Assembly: GCA_964016885.1 (NCBI GenBank) | Contig: OZ024754.1 | Coordinates: 40,548,001-40,612,000, forward strand | Reading direction: 5' to 3' | Length of the DNA stretch: 64,000 bases | From: Eledone cirrhosa | Taxonomy: Eukaryota | In this document: one piece after another, positions 1,256-58,888 of the stretch | How positions within the stretch are numbered: the stretch's first letter is position 1 | Layout: every line of letters starts with the position of its first letter | Made by a program: the position numbers and the translations under genes | The notes under the pieces: generated by a model | Told to the model about the DNA's origin: nothing | The model's input: only the letters and a program-made list of their open reading frames with translations | The model's database searches: none

Positions 1256-1455
1256 NNNNNNNNNNNNNNNNNNNNNNNNNNNNNNNNNNNNNNNNNNNNN
1301 NNNNNNNNNNNNNNNNNNNNNNNNNNNNNNNNNNNNNNNNNNNNNNNNNNNNNNNNNNNNNNNNNNNNNNNNNNNNNNNNNNNNNNNNNNNNNNNNNNNN
1401 NNNNNNNNNNNNNNNNNNNNNNNNNNNNNNNNNNNNNNNNNNNNNNNNNNNNNNN
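1256..1455. other. Assembly gap (200 N)
   Basis: run of exactly 200 n. Confidence 1.
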
Positions 1456-3299: not shown

Positions 3300-3568
3300 G
3301 ATTTCTACAGCTGGATGCCCTTCCTAACACCAACCCCATTTATAGTGAGTGCTGGGTGCTTTTTTGCCGTGGCACCTCCACGACCACTTTGCAGTGGAAT
3401 GATAGGGACCCCAGTCCCTATCATCTCATTTCTACAGCTGAGTAAACTGGAGCAATGTGAAATAAAGTGTCTTGCTCAAGGAAACAACGCATCACCCGGC
3501 CTGAGAATTGAACTCACAACCTTTCGATTGCAAGGCCAATGCTCTAACCACTAAGCCATGTGCCTCCA
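3300..3568 (-). mobile_element. tRNA-derived SINE family A (tRNA head + conserved core + RTE-type tail)
   Basis: A box TGGCTTAGTGG, B box GAGTTCAATTC, core CCTTGAGCAAGACACTTTA, tail GGAAGGGCATCCAGCTGTAGAAA; other copies ~1101-1255(+), 20476-20788(-), 32725-33055(-), 45260-45440(+), 48820-49080(+), 52665-53004(-). Confidence 0.85.
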
Positions 3569-3601
3569 TAGAATATCTTTTAAAAAACAACCTGGACTTA
3601 C

Positions 3602-6600
3602 CTGGGCTTGAAGTTGTCATGGATGCTGCCGAAATATTTGATGCAAGTTTTAACATATCTTCAGTACTAATTTCTCCAGAAGAATCTGCATTTGAAAGTC
3701 GTTTAACCAATGATTTAGCTGCTTTGCCTTCAAATTCTATGTCAGAACCTGAACCAATGAGATCAAGAACATTAAACTTAATTTTTGGTTGTCTTTGAGA
3801 GCGCCTTGGTTCAGTCAATGAATAGCCAACTGTCCTAATGGGGGTGTCCCAGTCACTTTGTGTCATACTGCTGGAATCTCGTTTACCATCACTACTACTC
3901 ATTATACTTTTATCATTATATCCCTCATTTGGTGTAGTGTTGTTATAATTGCTCTCAACAGTGCTTACCATTGAAGAACTATCAGTATTTGGAGTAGTAA
4001 AGTCTTCGGCAATGAATTCTTGTTTGATCTGCTGTTGAAGTCCAACTTTATTTCCAACCAAGCTACTTGTTTCCTTTTCCACATCTACTTCCATAGAATC
4101 ATCTTTGGTCTTAGTCTCCGCCGATACGCCATCATTAGAAATATCTAACTGAGAACCATCAGAGAGTTCAACTTTTATGTTTTCCTTCAGTGAAGCAGTT
4201 TTTGACTGAACCTTGTCATCTTCAGCCACAGCTTGATCAAGACATATCTCTGTTGAACTGCATGTCTTACTTTCTGTAGGATTGGAATCTGTTTCTTTTA
4301 TAGTTGGATTCTGATTACTAGAATTACTAGAGCTAACAGCATTCACAGGATCATTTATGTTATCTACAGATAATTGGTTATCATTCTTCTTGTCATCTTC
4401 AGAGTTTTCCTTACTACTCATAATTCCTTGGCTTTTATTATCAGATTCATGCGAACTATTAGAAGCACTAACTGTTGTATTTTGAACAGCTTCGTTCTGC
4501 TTGACTGACTCACAAGAATTGCTGCATTCAACAACAGAATTAATATTAACATCATCATTATTATTGTTGTTGCTGTTGTTGTTATTTATATTGGTCTGAG
4601 ATTGTGAATTGTTTTTAGATTCCTTCTCAACATTAATGTCTTTTATAACATTTAATTCAGTTGATTGACTGATGCGCTGGGGACTGTCCCTGCCTTCAAC
4701 ATGTGCGACCTTATCTAAACATGTTGCTTCAGAAGTTGAAGGTAGTGGTACAGGGGCATCACCTGATGAAACCTCATGTTGAGATTTGTTAGAATCAAGT
4801 TCAGGAAGGGCAACACCTGAATTATTATCTGCTGAAGTAGATTGATCATCAGTTGATAAAGATTTTGTAGTTGATGTTAACAAAACGTCTCCACTTAACG
4901 AGCTCTCTTCAATTATCTTGTTTTCAGATGAAGAAGATACATTTCCGGCAGATGTTGTTGTTGTATCATTAGATGATGTCATCTTATCTTTTGACATTGA
5001 AGATTCATTACAACTGGATGGCAATTGTGGGTCTTTTTCTATAGATGCTGATGACTCCTCCGCTTTTGAAACTGGTGCTAATGCTACTGTCTTACCTGCT
5101 GTGGTTGTAGTATTATTGTGGGAAACAGATTTGACATCCGTGGTAGATGGCAGATTTACATTAGCAATGGAAGGAAAGGGTTGAGTATTATCTCCAACTA
5201 ACACAGTGGCCTTCTCACCTGACGTAGAAACAACCATAATACTTTCTTGTGACAAGGTTCTGTTACTGTCTGATGTCAAGTGAGGTGATTGAATTGGGGT
5301 GACATCTGATTTTGATAAAATAACATCCTTATTACAAGACAAGGTTGACTCACTAGGTACAACAATGAAATCCTTTCCTTCAGGTTTACTAACACTAGGG
5401 TATAAATCATCGTGAGCTGTTGCATCAATATCGCTCAACAAGCTACTTGTTGGTGTCATTGTAGAGGATTCACTGCATTCATTGTGTGCAGACATAGAAG
5501 TGCTGTGTAAGTATGCTACAGTTGAAGATTGTTTCATGAAGCTGCTATCAATTGTTGCATCACTCTGATCTGGCTTCAAGTTGTTGAAATTTGACAATAC
5601 AGAACTACTGGATATGGAAGGTAACTCCAGAGTATCTGGATTCATGGTTAAACTCGGAAGATTTGGTCCGATATTATTATTATTATTAGTAGTAGTAGTA
5701 ATAGTAGTATGGTCATTTGATACATATACACCAGAATAAGAAGCTGTAGTATTAGGATAATTTGAAAGAGAAGTAGCTTGAAATGGATTAGAGGTTGAAA
5801 TTGATGACAAACCCATGTGCTGCTGCTGCTGCTGGTAGCTATTTTGGGAGTGAATACCATTACCATCTGAAGAAATGGCAGGCAAGGGATTGTTTGAGGT
5901 ACTGGTGGTGTTATCTGAAGGATTTGATAAGGGGAGTTGAGAGACTGGCTGAACCTGAGGGTTATAGAAAATACTAGGAGTAGAAATAACTCCAGAAGTT
6001 CTTGGAATTGTCAAATGAATATCATGAGCAGCAAGGATATCACTTGCAGATGTTAGCAAGGGTGTTTGAGTTATGTATGGAGATATTTCTATTGGGCTAC
6101 CAGTTGATCGTGATGAGGCTGGAGATTGCTGCAGGGAACTGCTAGAACTGAGATTAACATTCAGTGACTGAGATGGAGATAACAGCGAACTAATGGGGAG
6201 CAATTTGTTGGAGGGTCTATTTAAGTTTCCTGAAAATGCTGACTGAGAGGTTAAATATTGTTGATTAGTAGATACCGGTACCGGGCCGCTGACAGTATTA
6301 ACTAAACTTATTGAACTATTGGCTGAACTAGCAGACATAGACACAACCTGGTTATCATTTAAACTGCCTGTAGGATAATTCAAAGACCTTAAACTAGCAG
6401 AAACAAGGTTTAAATCTTGTACTGTTGAATCTGCCAAGTTACTAGGATTAAAAGATGAAACAGGCTTATTAGGAAGATAACTTTCAACGTTGGTTTTATA
6501 AGGAAAATTAGATTCTCTCTGAAAACTTGGCTCAGCAGTAATAATGTTCTTGGTATTTTTATCGTCATTGTTTTCCGACTGACTCTTTGGAGACTGATAT

Positions 6601-6797
6601 AAGAAATTATCAGCAGTATTGGCTAATAAATGCATGTTGCATTCAGTAACTTGATTACCTGATGGTTTTGTATCCAACAGGGGAACTGTCTTGCTAATTT
6701 GCTCCATTGGTTCTTTATGTTCAGATTCTAATTCATTTCTACCTCCAGAATCGCAATGGTCAACTGTGTCCAAAACATTTTTGTTACAATTTTCCAT
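3602..6797 (-). CDS. MBD-domain protein, first coding exon (~1065 aa Ser/Thr/Asn-rich low-complexity region). Model: 6797-3602, 2591-2535, 1805-1692, 3' end not found in window
   Basis: 1121-codon ORF; acceptor ctatttcag|ATAG at 6818; ATG of MENCNKNV at 6797; donor CCAG|gtaagt at 3602/3601 (phase 1) splices in frame to the MBD exons. Confidence 0.85.
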
Positions 6798-7692
6798 GTT
6801 CAATTCATATACAGCTATCTGAAATAGGGTTAAAACATGGACATTCATTATCTTCATTTAACAACATCACATCATTAATTAAATAAATGATAAGCGCCTT
6901 TCATATGAAATGGAATAAAGAAGGAAAACTGTTGCTGTGTACTCAGAAAATATTGGGTATATTAAAACTGACAGAGATGTCAGACTGACAAACAAGCAGG
7001 ATTTCTCACATTTTCATTAGTAATTTGATATTTGAAACATTTCTTAAATAAATTATGATTAGGCTTTAATATAAGTTGAAGGAGGAAGATGTAGTTTGCT
7101 TGAAGCATTGTGTATGGTGTAGAAAAATATGAAATTTGAAGGCCACAACAATGTGAAATGGATGAACAATAAAATAAATAAGAACAGATAAATTAGTAAC
7201 ATCTTGCTTCTGTCCTTATTTTCTTGTTCATCCATTTCACATTGTCATGGCCTTCAAACTTCATATTTTTCTATAAGTAAGAACATTTTAAACTGCACTT
7301 CACCATGAGTGTGGTCCTTGAGCTAGTTTAGTCCTGGATAATGACAACCCATGACAACATGGAAAACACATCAGATGACAACAGTTTGGTCATGGTTAGC
7401 ATAGCACATCTTTGATCACAGGTCAGCTGAAACAGGACTGACCTGGGAGTAAACAAAAACGATTTTTAGATAGAAGACTGCCCTCTTTTCACTATTTTTT
7501 TTCTTTTATTCTTTTACCGGTTTCAGTCACTAGACTGTGGTTATGCTTGGGCACCACCTTAAAGGGATTTTTAAAAAAAACCTATCACCCCCAGTACTAA
7601 TTTCATTGATCTCTTTCAGTTGAATTGCTAAGTATCAAACACAAACGTGTGCATGTGTGTAAATATATATCTATATATACACACACATATAT

Positions 7693-26562: not shown

Positions 26563-27499
26563 TACGGCTACAATACTGATTCCAACAATTAATGGTACGG
26601 CACCATGTCACCTCTTTTAATTCAGACATCACTGAATTTGCTGTGATCCACCAATCATATATTAACTGGGTGGCAACAGAGGGCACTGTGTGTCATTTGT
26701 ATTGACCCCGTAAGGATGAAAGGCAAAGCTAACCTTGGCGGGATTTGAACTCAAATAATAATAATAATAATAATTTCTACTATAGGCACAAGGCCAGCAA
26801 TTTTGGGGAAGGGGAAAGTCGATTAAATCGACCCCAGTACATTACTAGTGCTTTATTTTATCGACCCCGTAAGGATGAAAGGCAAAGTCAACCTCGGCGG
26901 GATTTGAACTCAGATCGTTAATAATAATAATAATAATAATTTCATTTATTGGCCACAAGGGCTGACATATCTAAATATCGGCAACTGTTGAAGCTCCAAT
27001 GAGTTGTGGAAACTGTTCTCCTATTTTACATAGAATCATCCCTAGTTATGGCTGCCAAACACAGTCTAAGTGTCAAAACAATTACACTTTTATATTCTAA
27101 TAGTTAAGGTGTCTAACCCATACTAGCTTGGAAAAATGGATGTTAAATGATGATAATGATGATGGAGTAGGGAGAGTGTTTCTACCTTCATACAAAGGTG
27201 TGTTGGTTTTGTAGTAAAAACATTGTAAACAAGACAGCAGTTCTCTAAATATTTACACTGACTTATTACATGACCTTCTTTTAGTCCAGCAAAAGAGATA
27301 ATTCAGCACAAGTTTGGAATCAAAGGGGTTGGAAAATATGTTGAAATATATTGTGTAAAAAAAACATTACTTTCTCTTGTTTGTCATTCTTTGTCTTTTA
27401 TATTCCTACCTCATTGTAGCAGCTTTCTGAAGTCCTCGTCAGTCAATATGTATATATTTAGTGGGACTTTTTATCTTAGACACACTATGTAAGAAATTC

Positions 27500-28698
27500 C
27501 CTGACTTCCATACGGATCTATACTATGACAATGGTCTGGTACTATCAAGCCATAAAATGGCCATGACCTGACCATGTTTAGGAAAAAATCTGATAACTAC
27601 CTTTAACAACCTAGGACTAAAAATGTCCATCTCTACCAACTTCACAAATGTTAACTTAGATCTACAGATCCTTAAGGACTCTAACCATCCCACTGTAGTC
27701 TTTAAAAATCTCATTAATAATATCAGAAAGAGGATATCAAACCTCCATTCTAGCAAAGCTATCTTCAACAGGGCAACCCCTACTACAAATCAGCCTTAAA
27801 TAACAGCGGTTTCTCTGATCACCACCCTATATCTAGCAAGAGAAAATCTGGACATAAAGCCGCTGTATGGTCCATGCCATGCTCAATGTTAAGACTAATG
27901 CAGGTAAAACATTCCTAACACTTCTCTGTAGGCAATAAATACCAGCAAATATTCAACCGCCACAGTGAAAATAGGCGACTCTTGTCACAAAAACATAAAA
28001 TCCCACATCACCAACAAATGCAAAAGCCTTCCACCTTATGAATGCTCATGCAGAAGGGTAGAGGCATGGCCCAATAGGGCAGTGGTGATCCAACTAGAAC
28101 CACCAAACAGAAGCTTAGAGTTATGTAGGAATGTCTGAGAGCCGGTTCCTGAACCGCAAAACAACCTTCAGATATCTTGACAAAAAACATACCACTCAGC
28201 TCACAAAAAATGTATGGAACTTCAAAGATAATGGCACAGCATTCTCCATTAAATGAAGGATACTAGAAAGGTCCACTCCCTAAATCACTGGAGCAAAATT
28301 CTGTCAGCTGTGTAGCTTGGATAATTGGAATATACTCTCCAAGGAAATACTTCTTAAATATGTGGCTCAACTGTTTAAATCGTTTTTGATAGAGTTACCT
28401 CCCTTGTCCTTTACAAAATTTTAAGTTATTGGTCAAATTATATGAAACAGTCCTGAAGTCATTTCTACAGTAAAATGACTTGAGTGCCATTCAGAGTCGC
28501 TGCAAGAATAACACTGAATTGGCAGGCCTTCACAGAATCAAGACTATTCTCTGTTTGTGTTTTCTGTAATCCTGTTATTGATTAGCTAATTTTTGCAATA
28601 TACACCTGATGACTCCACCAAAGTCGTGATCTGATGTAATTAGACCACAGAAATATGTTATATAAGGAAAAAGGTAATAAAAGAAAACGCACCTTGTA
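27500..28698 (+). mobile_element. Degenerate Penelope-like element (RT C-terminus + GIY-YIG region + 3' terminus)
   Basis: frameshifted peptides SNHPTVVFKNLINNIRKRISNL, YYKSALNNSGF, LNVKTNAGKTFLTLL, VWNFKDNGTAFSIK*RILERSTP*ITGAKFCQLC; CTGATGA..GAAA..AATAAA at 28606-28681; ends in (TA)n. Confidence 0.7.
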
Positions 28699-30594: not shown

Positions 30595-31179
30595 TTAGGT
30601 TGAAGTAGGAGGTAGAAGTTCTGCGTAATAGGAAGGTCTATCAATTCCAAGAATTGAGAAAACCATCGGTATACCATAAGTTACGTTAATGGCGACAATC
30701 AAAAATGGCAAAAAACTATCAGTCAGCTCATAAATTTGCATCCTTTTGATCTTTGGGTCTTTTATATTAATTCCAAATATATGTTTGCAAACATTTCGGA
30801 TTATCATCCGCAGAAGTTCCGCCGTAATCAACATAATAGGGACACCTATGATCAACCTTATAAAACATAAAATCACTGAGGTGAGTGTTGGTATTTCCAG
30901 TGGCACTGGAATTGGATAACTGGATGTTGCAAAACCATGTTGGTATGACAGCCACGAGCCAACAGAAATACCAGCACCAACACCAATAAGTAAGGTTGTA
31001 TCCCTGCGTGCTGTGTTCCACTTGTCCACCGGTGGATATAGTAAGCAGAGTAGGAACGGTACCCCTATAGTAAAGAAGGGAGCGACAGGATGTGTTACTG
31101 AAAAATGATCCAAAACTTGAAGATATGGGTAGATTAGCGGCAGAATTATGCAGACATATAGAACTCCAACAATAATATC
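30595..31179 (-). CDS. SGPP1: SGPP exon 3 (DIIVGVLYV...ELLPPTST*)
   Basis: ttcttttccag acceptor; WNTARRDTTLLIGVGAG motif; TM segments; TAA at 30595; candidate AATAAA at 30482-30487. Confidence 0.92.
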   Translation of the reverse strand, partial: DIIVGVLYVCIILPLIYPYLQVLDHFSVTHPVAPFFTIGVPFLLCLLYPPVDKWNTARRDTTLLIGVGAGISVGSWLSYQHGFATSSYPIPVPLEIPTLTSVILCFIRLIIGVPIMLITAELLRMIIRNVCKHIFGINIKDPKIKRMQIYELTDSFLPFLIVAINVTYGIPMVFSILGIDRPSYYAELLPPTST

Positions 31180-33308: not shown

Positions 33309-33398
33309 CAAAACTGAATGCATTCCCAGGTAAATCCTGCTAAGTGATATTAATGTAGTCCAGGCTATAGCAAACATCAGGCCAATATTAAATGGAAA
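33309..33398 (-). CDS. SGPP1: SGPP exon 2 (FPFNIGLMFAIAWTTLISLSRIYLGMHSVL)
   Basis: cttttgacag acceptor, TTG|gtgtgt donor, 90 nt; C3 catalytic motif SRxYxGMH. Confidence 0.92.
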
Positions 33399-39375: not shown

Positions 39376-39770
39376 TAAACAATATAAGGGTGGTGAATTG
39401 GCAGTATCGGTAGAGGGTCGGACATGCTTTCCAGCACAGTTACGTCCCTTTACGATCTGAGTTCAAATCCCGCCGAGGTTAAATTTGCCTTTCATCCATA
39501 CGGGGGTCGACAAAATAAAATACCAGTAATGCACTGGGTAATTGCTGGCCTTGTGCCAAAAAAAAGTAGAAACAATTAATCTTAAACAATATATGACCTG
39601 GGTAGAGGTGGTGAGAGCTGACCCCCAAATCACTGAGATTCTTCGCAGGCGAGATGATGAAGGAACACAACAGCGAGTGGAGAGATGCTGTACTGAGAAA
39701 GAGCCGTCTAATCCATACAAGCATGGAAAAACAGGCGTAAAAATGATGATGATGATATATATATACACAT

Positions 39771-39803
<33 letters not shown>

Positions 39804-40068
39804 CTTTGTTTTTCAATTTGTTTACCTAAAAACGTGTGTTGAGACAGATATTGTTATACTTTGGGAGGGTCATGCTACCAATAAAAACACATGTGTGTTT
39901 TTATTGGCAGCACGGCCCTCCCAAAGTATAACAATATATATATATATATATCATGATGGATTCAGTTTGAAACTAGTCAGACCATTACTCAACAGAGTAC
40001 TCAATACTTGGGGTAGTAGAGTATGGTTATATAAAGAGTCAGGACCCGTCGGCTGAGCTCTTGCCATT

Positions 40069-41265
40069 TCAACAGCTAGTCAACTGTTGAGACAGTATCA
40101 ACAGATGACCCTGTCTCAACAGTTGAGACAGTCTCAACAGATGACACTGTATCAACAGTTGAGACAGTATCAACAGTTGACACTGTATCAACAGATGACA
40201 CTGTATCAACAGATGACACTGTCTCAACAGTTGAGACAGTCTCAACAGATGACACTGTATCAACAGTTGACACTGTGTCAACGGATGATACTGTATCAAC
40301 AGTTGAGACAGTATCAACAGTTGACACTGTCTCAACTGTTGATACAGTGTCATCCGTTGACACAGTGTCAACTGTTGATACTGTCTCAACTGTTGATACT
40401 GTCTCAACTGTTGATACAGTGTCAACTGTTGATACTGTCTCAACTGTTGATACAGTGTCATCCGTTGACACAGTGTCAACTGTTGATACAGTGTCATCTG
40501 TTGATACAGTGTCAACTGTTGATACTGTCTCAACTGTTGATACAGTGTCAACTGTTGACACTGTATCAACAGTTGAGACTGTCTCAACAGATGACACTGT
40601 ATCAACAGTTGACACTGTGTCAACAGTTGAGACAGTATCAACAGTTGACACTGTATCAACAGTTGAGACAGTATCAACAGTTGACACTGTATCAACAGTT
40701 GAGACTGTATCAACAGTTGAGACTGTATCAACAGTTGAGACAGTATCAACAGTTGAGACAGTATCAACAGTTGAGACTGTCTCAACAGATGACACTGTAT
40801 CAACAGATGACACTGTATCAACAGTTGAGACAGTATCAACAGTTGACACTGTATCAACAGATGACACTGTATCAACAGTTGAGACAGTATCAACAGTTGA
40901 CACTGTATCAACAGTTGACACTGTATCAACAGTTGAGACTGTATCAACAGTTGACACTGTATCAACAGTTGAGACTGTCTCAACAGATGACACTGTATCA
41001 ACAGTTGACACTGTGTCAACAGTTGAGACAGTATCAACAGTTGACACTGTATCAACAGTTGAGACAGTATCAACAGTTGACACTGTATCAACAGTTGAGA
41101 CTGTATCAACAGTTGAGACAGTATCAACAGTTGAGACTGTCTCAACAGATGACACTGTATCAACAGATGACACTGTATCAACAGATGACACTGTATCAAC
41201 AGATGACACTGTCTCAACAGTTGAGACAGTCTCAACAGATGACACTGTCTTAACTATTGACACAG
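40069..41265. repeat. Self-complementary 9/18-bp satellite (GACACTGTATCAACAGTT variants) with an internal inversion at ~40326-40557
   Basis: alternating TCAAC-A-GTTGA and GANAC-T-GTNTC pseudo-dyads; open frames on both strands. Confidence 0.95.
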
Positions 41266-41407
41266 CATTGTCTGGAAGACTAGACTTCTCAGGAAATTGA
41301 CCAAACTCTGGTTCCCCTGAACAGTGTTCTATTGCTGGGATGTTGACTTTTTGAAAAAATGTTATCAAAGCAAGTTTTGATTCTGTTGATGATATGCTGA
41401 GAAGTCA

Positions 41408-41895
41408 GGTAGACCAGGTGTGTAATCAACAGTAAACCAGGTGTGTAAGCAGGAGCAGACAGGTGTGTAAGCAGCAGTAGACCAGGTGTGTAAGCAGCAG
41501 TAGACCAGGTGTGTAAGCAGCAGTAGACCAGGTTTACAAGCAGATGTAGACCAACTGTGTAAGCAGCAGTAGACCAGGTGTGTAAGCAGCAGTAGACCAG
41601 GTGTGTGAGCAGCAGTAGACCAGGTGTGTAAGCAGCAGTAGACCAACTCTGTAAGCAGCAGTAGACCAGGTGTGTAAGCAGCAGTAGACCAGGTGTGTGA
41701 GCAGCAGTAGACCAGGTGTGTAAGCAGGAGTAGACCAGGTGTGTAAGCAGGAGTAGACAGGTGTGTAAGCAGGAGTAGACAGGTGTGTAAGCAGCAGTAG
41801 ACCAGGTGTGTAAGCAGCAGTAGACCAGGTGTGTAAGCAGCAGTAGACTAGGTGTGTAAGCAGGAGTAGACAGGTGTGTAAGCAGCAGTAGACCA
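41408..41895. repeat. 23-bp minisatellite (AGTAGACCAGGTGTGTAAGCAGC), ~21 copies
   Basis: direct inspection. Confidence 0.92.
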
Positions 41896-44800
41896 GTATT
41901 GATCTGGTTATCAAAGAGGAAATCATGGCCTCAACACTTCAATTTCATCGTCATTCTACAAAGACTAGAAAGACTAAAACTTTAAAGTTCAAATAATTGC
42001 TATGATATCATTTCTGTTACTTTCATTTTTACTGTATTATTGTATATTGTATACTTTGGTTGAAGTCTGGTAGACAGCCATTTGCAATGAAAGCCTTCAG
42101 CCATTTGCAATGAAAGCCTTCAGCCATTTGCAATAAAAGTCGTCAGCCATTTGCAATAAATACAGACATATTCACACTTGTACTTTGAATTCGAAAGTTG
42201 AACCTTTTAACCAAATAAAACTATTTGATGCTTGACTACTGTTACTTATTTTATGATTCTGAAGAGATAAAAGCAAAGATGAACTCTGTAGAATTTGCAC
42301 TCAGAACATAAACAACCAAAACTGGATTCTTATTTTTTTCCACTGTACCATTCTAATTTGATCTGTAATTCTGACAATTGTCGTTGTCTAGTTAACTCTT
42401 AAAGTCTTGTACCACATGCAACCACATGAGTAAAACATTTTTGAAGAATACAAAACAACACTGTGACTACATGACATTAAAAAACTAAAGTGTTTTCTTT
42501 AATACTACAAATTTTCACAACGATTAAGTAACATTTGAATTAACAAAACCTCTTTTGAAATATTTGTAGTATTTTACTGAGTTAGTTTAAAATATTAAAT
42601 TACTGAATATTGTAAAGGATACACTAGTTACTGTAAAATGACTCCAACATATGAAGGTAGTTGTAAGAAAATGAATTTTACTTCTATCTACCATAGTGGT
42701 GGGTGAGGTGGGGATACTTTAATAGAAACCAGTCTGATTGTAATTTATATTTGTTTAAGTGAACATAACAAAGACACCTACTGTGAAATAAGACCAACAG
42801 ATAAAGTTGTATAATGCGGTTGTATGAATGTCTTTTGGTTTACACTTACAGAGTGTAGTTTAACCCTTTGAATTCTCTCACCTCTTTCTGTTCAAACCTG
42901 TTGCAACTGACCCCTTATACTGATGTTAAGCTATTGTTCTCAAAATAAATAATATCAAAATCTCATAGCTTTGATATTGTGTGAGATATTACGTGAAATA
43001 AAGCCTTTACTGTGAAAATAAAACAGTAAATATCGAGTAATGTAAATGGTAAAGGGTTAAAGCAAAGAGATGGAATATAGTCTGGAGTTGAACATGCTAA
43101 CACTGCAGGAGAAAGTTTTCAATGATGCTCTTAGAAAATAAATTTCAACACAAGAATAAGACTTTAGTAGTGTAAAATAAAACCAAATTAAGTAGGTAAA
43201 GATTATTTCTACATAAATTTTCTTATGTTGACAGAGGAGCAGAAATTTGTAGGGAAGAAAAAATTTTTCAACTGAATTAATTCAGTATAGAGTTAGTATT
43301 TATTTTAGTAACTCTTGGGAACTATACCCACCACCACACTCTCCTGAAACAGAACTGTATTTATATTATAACTTTCATTCCTTTATTCTTTTACTTGTTT
43401 TAGACTGTGGTCATGCTGGGGCACCACCTTCATTTAGCCAATCATGGTCTCTGTACTTATTTAAGTCTGGTACTTATTTTATAAATGTCTCTTTTGATAA
43501 ATTGATGCGTTAAAGACACAAACACCAACAGACACAAATATAAACATAGACACACACACATATGTACACATGTATGTATATATATATATATATATATGTT
43601 CCCTACATACAAAGTTAACCTACAGTCAGTAGGCATCTCTTAACCAAACATACACCCCAACTCCATCCTTCCACTCCCACCAACACCAACCTTTCTCTAT
43701 AAAGTTATGTTGGTACCACAGAACATCCAGTCCAAACTAAAGAGGTTGTGTAGGTGTCACGACAAAAAAAAAAAAGCACACAGTCCACACTGTAAGGTGG
43801 TTGGTGTTAGGAAGGACATCCGGTTGTAGAAAACCTGCCAGAGACACTTCCATACCAGTGAGACTACCACCTTACAAGATGGATTGGGTGCTTTTTATTA
43901 TCACACCAGTACTACTACCTCACATTTTATGTATGTATATATATAAGTATATATGTGCAAGTTAACTGCATCTGTAGGTGGTATGCCAAGTGAGCACCCG
44001 ATGCTCTTGTCAGAGTATGAATAGTATAAGAATAAAGGAACAAAGAATCAGTATTGCATCATAATATATTTAATAACATATTACATATGTTATTAAATAT
44101 GATATCGACACAGTGGACAGCACGGAAAAAGGAGGATGGGGTAGGGTGTGTGGGGTGGGGGTGTACATTGGGTTAAGAGGTGCCTACTGACTGTAGGTTT
44201 GTATGCAAGGGAAGGCAGGTTTTCTGTACAACTGCATGGCGCCAAAGATCTTGATCCAGTGACATTGTCTTAGAGAGGTGTACGCGTGCATGTTCAGTTT
44301 TTATCACCTCGTCCCAGGTTTTTCTTGGTCTACCCACTCCGTAGCTTCCATCAATTTTCATTGCCCTGCACTTGTTTTATGCAGCTGTCGTCCTTCATAC
44401 GCATCACATGGCCATACCAACGCAATCTCCTCTCCAGAACACAACATTTGATACCTCTTATGCTTAGTCTCTCTCTCAATTCGTTTATGCTTTGCTGTAT
44501 TTTCATAAAGAAATGATATGCAGGGAATTACTGAAGAGACCCCAGTATTTTTATAAAGAAATGATAGGGAGGGAATTACTGAAGGGATCCCAGTATTTTC
44601 ATAAAGAAATGATATGGATGGAATCACTGAAGGGACCCCAATCCCCCAGTATTTTCATAAAGAAATGATAGGGAGGGGACCACAGAGCAGATTGAGGTCA
44701 GAAAAGGAATGCTTTTGTGAAATTGTCACTGTGTATGTAGCACAGGTGTGAATAAGTGTCACACTGAACATGACTCTCTAACAATTACTTTTCTTTCTTT

Positions 44801-45987
44801 CTCCCTCACCCCACCGCTTTCACAAGTCTTGTTACTCCACATTATTGAAATAACACAGAATGAACATTTAACAAAAAAAAAAACAGGCATTTTATTGCAT
44901 GTCATATATGAGCGACCAGTTACAGCTGGTTTGAACAGTAAGAGGTAAGATAATTCTGGCAGGATATGGCCGGTTTAAATGCTAAAGGCTTAACATACCT
45001 TTTATCATTATCTTATAAGGTTGAGGGTGGTAAATAGGCAGTAATTAGTAGAGCGTCAGACACCCTGCTTCGTGGCACAGAGTTACGGCCCTTTATGTTC
45101 TGAGTTCAAATCCCGCCGAGGTTAGCTTTACCTTTCATCCTTACGGGGTCGATAAAACAAAGTACCAGTCACGCACTGGTGTCGATTTAATCGAATTTCC
45201 CCTCCCCTTCAAATTGCTGGCCTTGTGCCTAAAGTAGAAACCATCATTATCTTATAAGGTGTATGTAAAGGTGTATGGTTTAGTGGTTAGAGCATTGGGC
45301 TTGCAATCCTGAGGTTGTGAGTTCGATTCTTGGACGAGGTGATGGATTGTGTCCTTGAGCAAGACACTTTATTTTCATGTTGCTCCAGTTTACTCAGCTG
45401 TAGAAATGTGTTGCGATGTCACTGGTGCCAAGCTGTATTGGCTATTGGCAATATATAATAATTGTTTCTACTTTAGGCACAAGGCCAGCAATTACCCAGT
45501 GCATTACTGGTACTTTATTTTATCGACCCCGTAAGAATGAAAGGCAAAGTTAACCTCGGCGGAATTTGAACTCAGTCCGTAAAGGGACGTAACTGTGCTG
45601 CAAAGCATGGCGTCCGACCCTCTACCGATACTGGCAATCCACCAGGCACTTGGTCAGTTATTTCGGAGGGGAGGAGTCGATTAAATCAACCCCACTGTAT
45701 GACTGGTACTGTATTTTATTGAACCAGGAAGGAAAAAGGGCAAAGTAGACCATGACAGGAGTTGAACTCAAACCATTAAGAGCCAAAACAAATACCACAT
45801 AGCATTTTGTGTGATGTTCTAACATGACTAAGATAATAAAAAATTAATTAAGATAATAAAAAATTAATTATAAATCTGTTTATTGTAGCTGACATACCTA
45901 AGCTGTCACTAACAACAACAACTGAGAAACAATAAAAATGAATTTCCTATATTTTAATAACCAAGACTGTGTTGCTTAGTAGCATGT

Positions 45988-53004: not shown

Positions 53005-53964
53005 TATATATATATATATATATATATATGGAGCACAACAGCCAACTGTACAAACATCCTAGTCTCTCACAAAGTGGTAACACATACCAAATCTACAGGC
53101 ATTCCATCAAAGTCAACATTGACAAGTTTATCTCCCAACGAAGACAGATTTCAAAAATCAAAAAAAAAAAACCCATCTTGTTGTTAACATGTGTCGGGAT
53201 ATCAACTATTTATTCATTGTCGGAGGTTTTACATGTGAGGAATTTATCAAGGACTACAAGACCTTTCACCCTTAGCAGAAAGGAAATTACTATGTCATTA
53301 CTCTAGAATCTAGACTCTAATGGAAGGCATGAAAGAGTTAATTCAAAGGCCATGAGAATATATAAGAGGATTCAAATGTTGTGTACAAGAGAGGAGATTA
53401 CGTTGGTAAAGACATGTGATTCGTATGAAGGATGACAGCTGCCAAAAAAGAAGCAGAACGCTCAAAGTCGATGGAAGCCTTGAAGTGGGAAGACCCAGGA
53501 AGACTTGGGATGAGGTGATAAAAGCTAACCTTGCCCAATTGCACCTCTCAAAGGTGATGACACAGGACCGAGATCTCTGGCATTATGCAGTAATACAGAA
53601 GACCCAACTTCCCATGGGCACAGGTCGAAGCTGAAGCATATATACAGTATGCCCTGCCCCACTGTCACCCACCTCACCCTTCCACTGTATAGGGGTCATG
53701 TAAGTATGACAACAAAAAGTACCCAGTCCACAGTGTAAAGTGATCGTGTAGGTGTCACAACAAAAAGCACCCAGTACTCACTGTAAATGAGATTGGCATT
53801 AGGAAGGGCATCTAGCTATAGAAACCAAGTCAAAATCAGTTCAGTATAAGCAAAGCATGGTCACCTGATCTAGCATTGCCCATAACAGGACAACTCGTCT
53901 AACCCATTGCTAGCGTGGAAGAATGGATGTAAAATGGTAATGATGATGATATATACATATATAC

Positions 53965-54064
53965 GAAGGATTCAGGACCCCAATGGCTGAGCTCCTGCCA
54001 TTGCAACAGCTAGATCTAGCTGTTGCAATGGCAGGAGCTCAGCCATTGGGGTCCTGAATCCTTC
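53965..54064. repeat. Perfect 100-bp spacer-less palindrome
   Basis: GAAGGATTC...GCTAGA|TCTAGC...GAATCCTTC, centre 54014/54015. Confidence 0.95.
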
Positions 54065-54424
54065 ATATTACCCACTCTACTACCCCAAATATCAAGCACT
54101 CTAGTGAGTAATGGTCTAATATAAACACTGTAAAATAAACAGCTTTGTATGATAGAACCAGGAGAGAAAATCTCTTGCAGTGAACCAGAGACTGGTCCAT
54201 TGGAAAACTTATAACTAACAAATATATTGATCGGTAATTGTGATATAAAATAATTAAATGTAATCAGTTTGACAGCTGTTAAAATATTGTTTATAAAATC
54301 TGAAAATGGCCATCCTCAGTTAAAATATTGATTGTTAAAGTGTAAAATGTTACTGATTTTGATTGAGGATTTTCCTAGAAATTATTAATCAAACATTTGG
54401 CATGTAAAATTATTTTTAAAATCA

Positions 54425-56765: not shown

Positions 56766-56962
56766 GGGCGGTGAATTGGCAGTATCGGTAGAGGGTCGGA
56801 CGCCATGCTTTCCACCATAGAGTTACGTCCCTTTACGATTTGAGTTCAAATCCCGCCGAGGTTAACTTTGCCTTTCATCCTTACGGGGTCGATAAAATAA
56901 AGTACCAGTAATGCACTGGGATAATTGCTGGCCTCGTGCCAAAAAGTAGAAACAATTATTAT
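56766..56962 (+). mobile_element. SINE family B (octopus OK-like, recalled), representative copy
   Basis: GGCGGTGAATTGGCAG..GAGTTCAAATCCCGCCGAGG..GGGGTCGATAAAATAAAGTACCAG; related copies near 8970-9115, 9930-10210, 13180-13340, 21732-21960, 26703-26920, 39388-39580, 45025-45245, 45460-45645, 51052-51200, 59705-59950. Confidence 0.8.
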
Positions 56963-57177
56963 GAAACTAATAAAATGCAAATTCCGTGTTGTTGTTTTTT
57001 TAATAATAAATAAACAGAAGCCAAAAGTGATTTCTCTCTTTTATGCGTTTATATTTGCATTTTATCATCCAAATCCCACCGAGGTTGACTTTGCCTTTCA
57101 TCCTTAAATACCCCCCCCCCCCCACACACACACACAGCAAATATTGCTGGCCTTGTGCCTAAATCAGACACCATTAT

Positions 57178-58020: not shown

Positions 58021-58180
58021 ACAGCTGTGAAACAAGGAAGATTAACTACATGTTTATCAACTAAAACCAGAAATACACATGTTGGAATTAATAACTATAA
58101 ACAATGGTAAAAGGAATTGATGTCCCGTTCGTATTTTAAACCTGCTGAAAATTTAGGGAATAAAATAAATATTTACTTAC

Positions 58181-58888
58181 ATCGTATCTCTGGTGGAATA
58201 GATATAGCATAGAGAAAGGTATGCAAGTGCCAACCATAGCATGTGTTGAAGGCATTCCGTACTCCAGTTCATATCGAGCTTCCAACTTAATGACTGGGGG
58301 CGAAATAGGACGGGGTCTCTTCACGATGTCTTTAGTAGCTTGGCCTAAGTAAAGTGTAATCCACCACATCACTACAACTTTCCGGGAGACGAAAAAATCT
58401 AAGTTCCACACGATGAAAGGGAAAAAAGTAGTGTAAAACAATTCGTCGCCCAAAGCGGCACCAAAACTGAACAAGTAGTAGAGAGATTTGTATTGTATTT
58501 TGTAAGGGAGTTTGTTCGTTTTCTCGTCTAAATTAGAAGTGCTTTTAATGGGCTTGCCGCCGTTTTGGAAGTTAGATTGGCTCCCCGGATCCATTTCCGT
58601 GATTCCTGGTATTTTCGGCCCTTTTAAATTGCGACGGATACAGTTATCACTACTTTCATGTTCATCTGGAACCAACACCCCATTTTGATCATACTGACAG
58701 ACCTTTCGGGGATCATCTTCATCGCGAAAAACTATTGAAGAATTCTTTAATCCCGATTGAGAATACATAGTGCTGGATGATGTCGTTTTTGCGGAATTTT
58801 CGTTGTAGGACAATCCACAAAGACGTTGAAACCGAGCAACTAGATATGGGTCATCAAGATATAAAATAATACTGTGTAACATATCCAT
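58181..58888 (-). CDS. SGPP1: Sphingosine-1-phosphate phosphatase (SGPP1/2 family, PAP2 fold), exon 1. Model: 58888-58181, 33398-33309, 31179-30595 (1383 nt, 460 aa)
   Basis: [14 protein letters not shown]1 motif [17 protein letters not shown] (C2); GAT|gtaagt donor, phase 0; SGPP1 vs SGPP2 orthology cannot be resolved. Confidence 0.93.

What the first reader, a model, noticed from the sequence alone, without database searches (positions are those of the whole stretch)
40069..41265. 1.2-kb satellite of interlocking palindromes that reads almost the same on both strands
Seen: the 18-bp unit has two overlapping pseudo-dyads (TCAAC-A-GTTGA and GANAC-T-GTNTC), so there is a symmetry axis every 9 bp. 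Both strands therefore translate to (TVS-TVD/E)n in one frame and Q/L-rich repeats in another, each for 340-430 codons. Inference: the DNA could extrude cruciforms in almost any register, and the SGPP intron-1 pre-mRNA would fold into long, regularly mismatched dsRNA. Coleoid cephalopods are known for very high ADAR activity, so this would be a strong editing or small-RNA substrate. The architecture is what repeated hairpin self-priming synthesis would produce.
Basis: partly seen in the sequence, partly recalled or inferred. Interest (0 to 1): 0.75.

Follow-up and report, generated by a model that had tools for sequence, protein, structure and literature searches.

The report
Two-way minisatellite at a retrotransposon end
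This is a real, one-off 1.2-kb tandem repeat in an octopus gene intron that reads almost the same on both strands and begins exactly where a jumping-gene fragment breaks off, so it was likely born from fold-back copying errors at that break and is likely harmless filler rather than a functional element.

Summary
The array is real: 40080-41263, 18-bp unit x65.8, no indels, 83.5% identical to its own reverse complement. It is the most strand-symmetric of 156 minisatellites in 864 kb sampled. It is single-locus (92 of 92 pattern hits lie here), so not a satellite family. It lies in intron 1 of SGPP. The axis every 9 bp and the four open frames follow arithmetically from the unit; they are not separate evidence.

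(1) A 234-bp internal inverted block and both terminal dyads point the other way. (2) The array starts at the base where a 3' fragment of a Penelope-like (Hydra-type) retrotransposon ends; 15 of 29 sister copies fold back there, and none of the other 155 arrays abuts such an end. (3) A second fold-back family has 2-3-unit, two-dyad repeats with the same 11-mer at its apex.

Best reading: born by repeated fold-back at the insertion junction, then grown by slippage and block duplication; likely neutral. Main rival: an older array cut by the insertion. Long dsRNA is predicted but comes from the inverted block. Editing could not be tested.

The parts
40080..41265 (.). Single-locus 18-bp strand-symmetric minisatellite, about 66 units, 18 unit variants, no indels; last unit (41250-41265) decayed
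   Evidence: unique in genome
40080..40090 (.). First dyad, in the inverted orientation (T at the axis; 0 of 50 forward-block units have T there); its 3' seven bases are the reverse complement of the retrotransposon fragment's last stem bases
40320..40552 (-). Internal inverted block of about 13 units between two near-perfect fold-back centres at 40319 (2 mismatches per 54-bp arm) and 40553 (3 per 54); a rare unit variant is mirrored at 36 bp on both sides of 40319
40554..41119 (+). Higher-order duplication: 40554-40723 is identical to 40950-41119 (170 bp, spacing 396 = 22 units)
39950..40080 (-). 3' terminal (pLTR) fragment of a high-copy Penelope-like retrotransposon, truncated inside the likely hammerhead helix II; lacks the usual inverted arm and the second (TA)n flank
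39933..39951 (.). (TA)n target on the outer side of the retrotransposon fragment
   Evidence: same context in family copies
41266..41408 (.). Single-copy right flank; no retrotransposon remnant and no protein relative found
58177..58888 (-). SGPP (sphingosine-1-phosphate phosphatase) coding exon 1; the array lies in the intron that follows
   Evidence: 86% identity to the Octopus sinensis protein
33309..33397 (-). SGPP coding exon 2 (approximate ends)
30598..31179 (-). SGPP coding exon 3
53960..54120 (+). Second copy of the same retrotransposon end in this intron, with an ordinary single fold-back (52-bp helix predicted); internal control

Best explanation
It is a single-locus intronic minisatellite that was likely born when DNA synthesis at the truncated end of a Penelope-like retrotransposon insertion folded back on itself more than once, that then grew by slippage and block duplication, and that is likely neutral. 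SHOWN: the array abuts the truncation point; sister copies fold back at that point; the array holds four orientation switches and a 396-bp duplication. INFERRED: two fold-backs about centres 9 bp apart give a direct repeat of period 18 with a dyad every 9 bp; this seed then expanded, and a further pair of fold-back switches made the 234-bp inverted block. Any dsRNA and editing would be a by-product.
For: Left flank is a high-copy element (3,192 candidates, 40 scored). It is 78% identical to the pLTR of an intact 3,531-bp tandem element with an RT and C-terminal GIY-YIG-type frame. 15 of 29 sister copies fold back within -1 to +11 nt of the point where the array starts. Only 1 of 156 arrays abuts one of 38 family hits in 864 kb, and it is the most symmetric one. 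The first dyad has the orientation a snap-back copy predicts. The unit resembles the element's 160-nt end more than shuffled units do (3 of 250 symmetric shuffles reach it). A second (TA)n-flanked fold-back family shows two-dyad repeats of period 15-29 with the same 11-mer in 14 of 19 listed hits outside this chromosome; 7 of 7 fetched are fold-back elements. Neutral side: single locus, a dyad-breaking variant in 19 of 63 units, no protein relative.
Against: The flanking family itself showed no copy folded exactly at that dyad (0 hits) and no other three-arm short fold-back (3 hits: this locus and two in an unrelated 37-bp array). The second dyad has no clear source in the flank. The last unit is decayed (2 of 16 to 4 of 18 mismatches) and shares the first dyad's orientation, which also fits an older array. 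The same 11-mer occurs in five unrelated tandem repeats with no such element found beside them (L124-L128). The 29 sister copies were picked as best matches to this copy, so they are biased to reach this point. Mirror quality at the two centres is not exceptional for an inversion: 10% and 19% of in-register direct pairs match as well. No orthologous locus was available.
Confidence: 0.5

Rival explanations
1. An older quasi-palindromic minisatellite was already there. The retrotransposon inserted at, or a deletion ran into, its left end, perhaps helped by hairpin fragility and a few shared bases.
For: Sharp left end against a decayed right end; both terminal dyads share one orientation. The 11-mer occurs in unrelated minisatellites. 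The direct join shares only one base. No matching fold in the flanking family.
Against: The element ends at its family's usual truncation point. A 7-bp reverse complement of its end follows 8 nt later (about 1 in 1,000 by a rough estimate). None of 155 other arrays abuts such an end. The family normally targets (TA)n, not minisatellites.
Confidence: 0.35
2. The array is a kept structural element: an intronic dsRNA that recruits ADAR or yields small RNAs, or a cruciform-forming site that affects SGPP.
For: Predicted pre-mRNA helices of 69 and 65 bp, 89% of bases paired. Octopus has very high hyper-editing and palindromic repeats are edited in frog (PMC5625713 passages).
Against: Single locus. 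A dyad-breaking variant has spread to 19 of 63 units. Ordinary retrotransposon hairpins in the same intron fold as well per base. The long helices depend on one inversion.
Confidence: 0.08
3. The 442-codon minus-strand frame is a coding exon for a Thr/Val/Ser/Asp repeat.
For: The frame opens 54 codons before the array and stops right after it. Most variation is at third positions.
Against: Two other four-fold degenerate third positions never vary (0 of 65 each); the variable ones are the axis bases and the mispaired dyad position. No protein relative among 243-774-residue proteins or elsewhere in the genome. No in-phase acceptor with a good pyrimidine tract (8-11 of 19). The O. sinensis and Argonauta SGPP proteins map to three exons only.
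Confidence: 0.04
4. A fold-back read or assembly artefact.
For: Palindromes are prone to such errors (general knowledge). No record spans the whole array; the inner inversion junctions were not tested.
Against: Contigs of three runs of one sample hold the element-array join (40053-40109; 27 and 30 letters on the two sides, short of the tool's 31-letter bridging rule), and two runs hold the right end. These runs may be the assembly's source. The inverted block is not an exact mirror and has its own unit order.
Confidence: 0.03

Closest known systems
Single-locus minisatellites with interspersed variant units (recalled, general knowledge)
   Same: 18-bp unit, one locus, few variant units in mixed order, block duplication, decayed terminal unit
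   Different: Unit is nearly its own reverse complement, so inversions keep the register; holds an internal inverted block, which six of the next most symmetric arrays lack
Inverted, 5'-truncated ends of Penelope-like elements, Hydra clade (PMC8557442)
   Same: Flank has the pLTR end, a (TA)n target, a one-sided tail, and family-wide fold-back at the truncation point
   Different: Here the inverted arm is replaced by a 1.2-kb tandem array; the passages read describe no such array
Small inverted triplications, DUP/IN/DUP (PMC13334657), and foldback inverted insertions of about 5-34 bp at breaks (PMC11724301)
   Same: Direct-inverted-direct layout of similar scale (234 bp against about 160 bp); short snap-back copy at a junction
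   Different: Described in cancer and yeast mutants, not as the seed of a tandem array; no clean triplicated segment can be read here
Non-LTR retrozymes, tandem repeats derived from PLE termini (bioRxiv 10.64898/2026.07.22.740005)
   Same: Tandem repeat arising at a PLE terminal sequence by local amplification
   Different: Retrozyme units carry a type I hammerhead; this unit is 18 bp and carries none

Membership tests
Satellite DNA family | Many or very long arrays of the unit in the genome | tested here: not met
   54 of 54 and 92 of 92 exact pattern hits lie in this one array; no search with mismatches was run
Single-locus minisatellite | Unit of 10-100 bp, head to tail, kilobase scale, one locus, variant units | tested here: met
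Single-locus minisatellite | Copy-number variation between alleles | not testable with these tools
   Only contigs of one sample hold the locus
Penelope-like element (left flank) | pLTR homologous to an element with RT and GIY-YIG endonuclease, in tandem | tested here: met
   78% over 100 bp to both ends of a 3,531-bp tandem unit with a 784-codon frame; one copy is joined to an inverted RT piece. Domains were read by motif; Pfam and PDB gave no hit
Penelope-like element (left flank) | Inverted 5'-truncated copy and (TA)n target | tested here: met
   15 of 29 sister copies fold back; this copy has (TA)n on one side only
Penelope-like element (left flank) | Hammerhead ribozyme in the pLTR | tested here: inconclusive
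   Core and helix motifs visible in longer copies, one with the U3-A8 variant of PMC4209133; predicted folds do not give the active shape; no hammerhead among the 150 of 197 Rfam rows shown
Hydra clade of PLEs (intact relative L087) | RWK-type motif, DKT, CxCX5C linker, no CCHH, C-terminal endonuclease | tested here: met
   Motifs read in the translation (RWR in place of RWK) against the description in PMC8557442; no tree was built
Small inverted triplication | Direct-inverted-direct arrangement | tested here: met
Small inverted triplication | One segment present three times with defined breakpoints | tested here: inconclusive
   Unit order of the block matches the flanking blocks only in parts of 47-75 bp
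Non-LTR retrozyme | Tandem unit carries a type I hammerhead | tested here: not met
   18-bp unit has no ribozyme core
Protein-coding repeat exon | Splice signals, synonymous variation, protein relatives | tested here: not met

The most novel reading that the evidence does not exclude
Penelope-like retrotransposon insertions are birthplaces of strand-symmetric minisatellites. Repeated fold-back at the hammerhead helix where the cDNA stalls writes two dyads a few bases apart, and two reflections give a tandem unit twice as long as their spacing. Octopus genomes hold the series from single hairpin, through 2-3-unit seeds, to this 66-unit array.
Probability: 0.3. Interest if true: 0.55.

Novelty: new variant of a known kind. 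Interest (0 to 1): 0.3.

Why it matters
As an object it is one likely neutral intronic repeat. It matters only as a possible record of how a minisatellite is born. How tandem units first arise, and how Penelope-like elements make their inverted ends, are both incompletely understood (PMC8557442 calls the mechanism undefined). If the link holds, a genome with thousands of such insertions gives a countable series of intermediates. It would also show that strand-symmetric units let inversions accumulate without breaking register, which is what creates the long dsRNA here.

Tried and rejected
Satellite family: rejected. Remnant of the inverted retrotransposon arm at the right end (a 12-base match with a 2-base gap near 41270): rejected, 111 of 400 window controls score as high. 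Relation to a 31-bp array on the same chromosome and four other repeats with the same 11-mer: no shared flanks, symmetry 0.35-0.56 for the four measured. Rfam: only sub-threshold microRNA-hairpin matches among the rows shown. Pfam LED_rpt match to the 442-codon frame is below its cutoff (30.7 against 59 bits). Palindrome-perfecting alleles: three minority alleles would complete a base pair, but three other variants break symmetry and units are not independent, so this is only suggestive. Expression: no RNA holder listed, which is no evidence either way; a small run of unknown kind and a RAD run did not cover the right flank. Three searches could not be run: the profile search of protein representatives (so short or long relatives of the 54-residue flank frame remain unsearched) and both Atlas look-ups. 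Literature searches found no paper on this exact link; subscription journals are not covered and no supplements were opened. In one search the script counted 16 of 29; I dropped L048, whose hit is a (TA)n run 37 nt away.

Full report
OBSERVATION. The array is at 40080-41263: period 18, 65.8 copies, no indels. It has 18 unit variants, and every unit carries two odd-centred pseudo-dyads that overlap by two bases. It is 81-84% identical to its reverse complement in every 18-bp register. In a control of 864 kb (the window plus 80 stretches of 10 kb) it is the most symmetric of 156 non-redundant minisatellites (0.835; median 0.43; 2 reach 0.7). The second axis at 9 bp is forced by geometry once a tandem unit has one dyad. 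The four open frames (394-442 codons) exist because the unit's only stop triplet falls in the third frame on each strand. Two exact patterns gave 54 and 92 hits in the 3-Gb genome, all in this array. It is therefore a single-locus minisatellite.

SETTING. The host gene is SGPP on the minus strand, 86% identical in exon 1 to the Octopus sinensis protein. It has three coding exons, at 58888-58177, about 33397-33309 and 31179-30598. The array is in intron 1. Contigs from three runs of one sample hold the left join, with 27 and 30 letters on its two sides, just short of the tool's bridging rule. Two runs hold the right end, with a one-letter variant near 41251. These runs may be the assembly's source, and nothing spans the array.

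INTERNAL HISTORY. Orientation runs: first dyad inverted, 12 units forward, about 13 units inverted (40320-40552), 38 units forward, last unit inverted. The two inner switches are near-perfect hairpin centres, with 2 and 3 mismatches per 54-bp arm against about 11 elsewhere. A rare variant lies 36 bp on either side of 40319. Any inversion in a tandem array gives such centres: 10% and 19% of in-register direct pairs match as well. Only the mirrored variant points to fold-back in particular. A 170-bp block is repeated exactly 22 units later, which shows growth by block duplication. The inverted block is not an exact mirror of its neighbours, which argues against a read artefact.

THE LEFT FLANK. 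Bases 39950-40080 are a high-copy element (3,192 candidates, 40 scored) that sits in (TA)n. In 15 of 29 sister copies a fold-back arm starts within -1 to +11 nt of the point where the array starts (L048 dropped as a (TA)n hit; the copies were chosen as best matches). Longer copies run on into 3' non-coding sequence, and one joins an inverted RT fragment. An intact relative forms 3,531-bp tandem units with a 784-codon frame and carries a 78% match to the flank at each unit boundary. Its motifs fit the Hydra clade of Penelope-like elements as described in PMC8557442 (passages and Introduction read). Pfam and PDB gave no hit and no tree was built. The pLTR shows hammerhead core motifs by eye, one with the U3-A8 variant of PMC4209133 (first quarter read). 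Folding and Rfam did not confirm the ribozyme. The copies break off inside its likely helix II.

IS THE ARRAY TIED TO THE ELEMENT? For: the array is the only one of 156 that abuts any of 38 family hits. The reverse complement of the element's last stem heptamer follows 8 nt later. The first dyad has the axis base that a snap-back copy predicts, seen in 0 of 50 forward units. The doubled unit matches the element's end better than shuffled units (3 of 250 symmetric shuffles reach it; a test made after seeing the likeness). A second (TA)n-flanked fold-back family (4,805 exact 25-mer hits) makes the same 11-mer at its apex by fold-back. In 14 of 19 listed hits outside this chromosome it carries two such dyads, giving 2-3-unit repeats of period 15-29; 7 of 7 fetched were fold-back elements (84 rows were not listed). 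Its membership in the Penelope-like group was not established. Against: the flanking family shows no copy folded at that exact dyad and no other three-arm case. The second dyad has no clear source. The right end is decayed. Five unrelated repeats share the 11-mer. A suspected element remnant at the right end failed its control.

MECHANISM (inferred). Synthesis at the truncated end folded back about two centres 9 bp apart. Two reflections equal a translation of 18 bp, which gives a two-unit seed with a dyad every 9 bp. Slippage and unequal exchange expanded it. Because the unit is nearly self-complementary, later template switches inverted blocks without breaking register. Precedents: foldback insertions of about 5-34 bp at breaks (PMC11724301, abstract), small inverted triplications (PMC13334657, abstract and Discussion), and tandem repeats from PLE termini (bioRxiv 10.64898/2026.07.22.740005, passages and Discussion). 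I put the seeded origin at 0.5 and an older array cut by the insertion at 0.35.

FUNCTION. The pre-mRNA strand is predicted to form helices of 69 and 65 bp, but only 17 bp without the inverted block. An ordinary element hairpin in the same intron gives 52 bp and a lower energy per base. DNA hairpins are strong only at the two inner junctions. Octopus hyper-editing is high and tracks dsRNA (PMC5625713, passages), so bystander editing is plausible but untested. A dyad-breaking variant has spread to 19 of 63 units, which argues against selection on structure. Coding is unlikely: two four-fold degenerate positions never vary, no good in-phase acceptor exists, and no protein relative was found.

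VERDICT. A real and unusually symmetric single-locus minisatellite, likely neutral. Its interest lies in a possible birth record at a retrotransposon fold-back site. Six literature searches found no report of that exact link; supplements were not opened. Interest 0.3.

Noticed in passing
L087:685-770 (G000:C1, tandem 3,531-bp units): Intact Hydra-type Penelope-like element in tandem; its pLTR has a hammerhead-like motif with the U3-A8 core variant and an apparently long helix III. The RT piece has 22,489 candidates in the genome.
   Followed up: partly
L129-L135, L136-L165: Second (TA)n-flanked fold-back family with 4,805 exact 25-mer hits; apices often carry short templated patchworks and sometimes two dyads.
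   Followed up: partly
window 39848-39937: Near-perfect 90-bp hairpin between (TA)n runs, directly left of the retrotransposon fragment; part of the same sequence lies beside the copy in L045.
   Followed up: no
window 41409-41896: 23-bp minisatellite x21, 145 bp right of the array; not symmetric (0.34). Intron 1 holds many other minisatellites.
   Followed up: partly
window 3492-6857 (-): Stop-free frame of 1,121 codons, Ser/Asn/Thr-rich, with no Pfam hit; likely a large exon of another gene.
   Followed up: no
window 27458-28337 (+): Decayed Penelope-like RT and endonuclease fragments, 27-33% identical to the L087 frame.
   Followed up: no
window 39388-39580, 45459-45644, 56766-56972 and others: Abundant dispersed repeat of about 190 bp with SINE-like features (label recalled, not tested), in both orientations within intron 1; a further dsRNA source.
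   Followed up: no
L126:982-1314: 27-bp partly palindromic array (symmetry 0.56) with the same 11-mer, lying next to what looks like a LINE reverse-transcriptase fragment (read by eye).
   Followed up: no
window 1256-1455: Run of 200 N.
   Followed up: no
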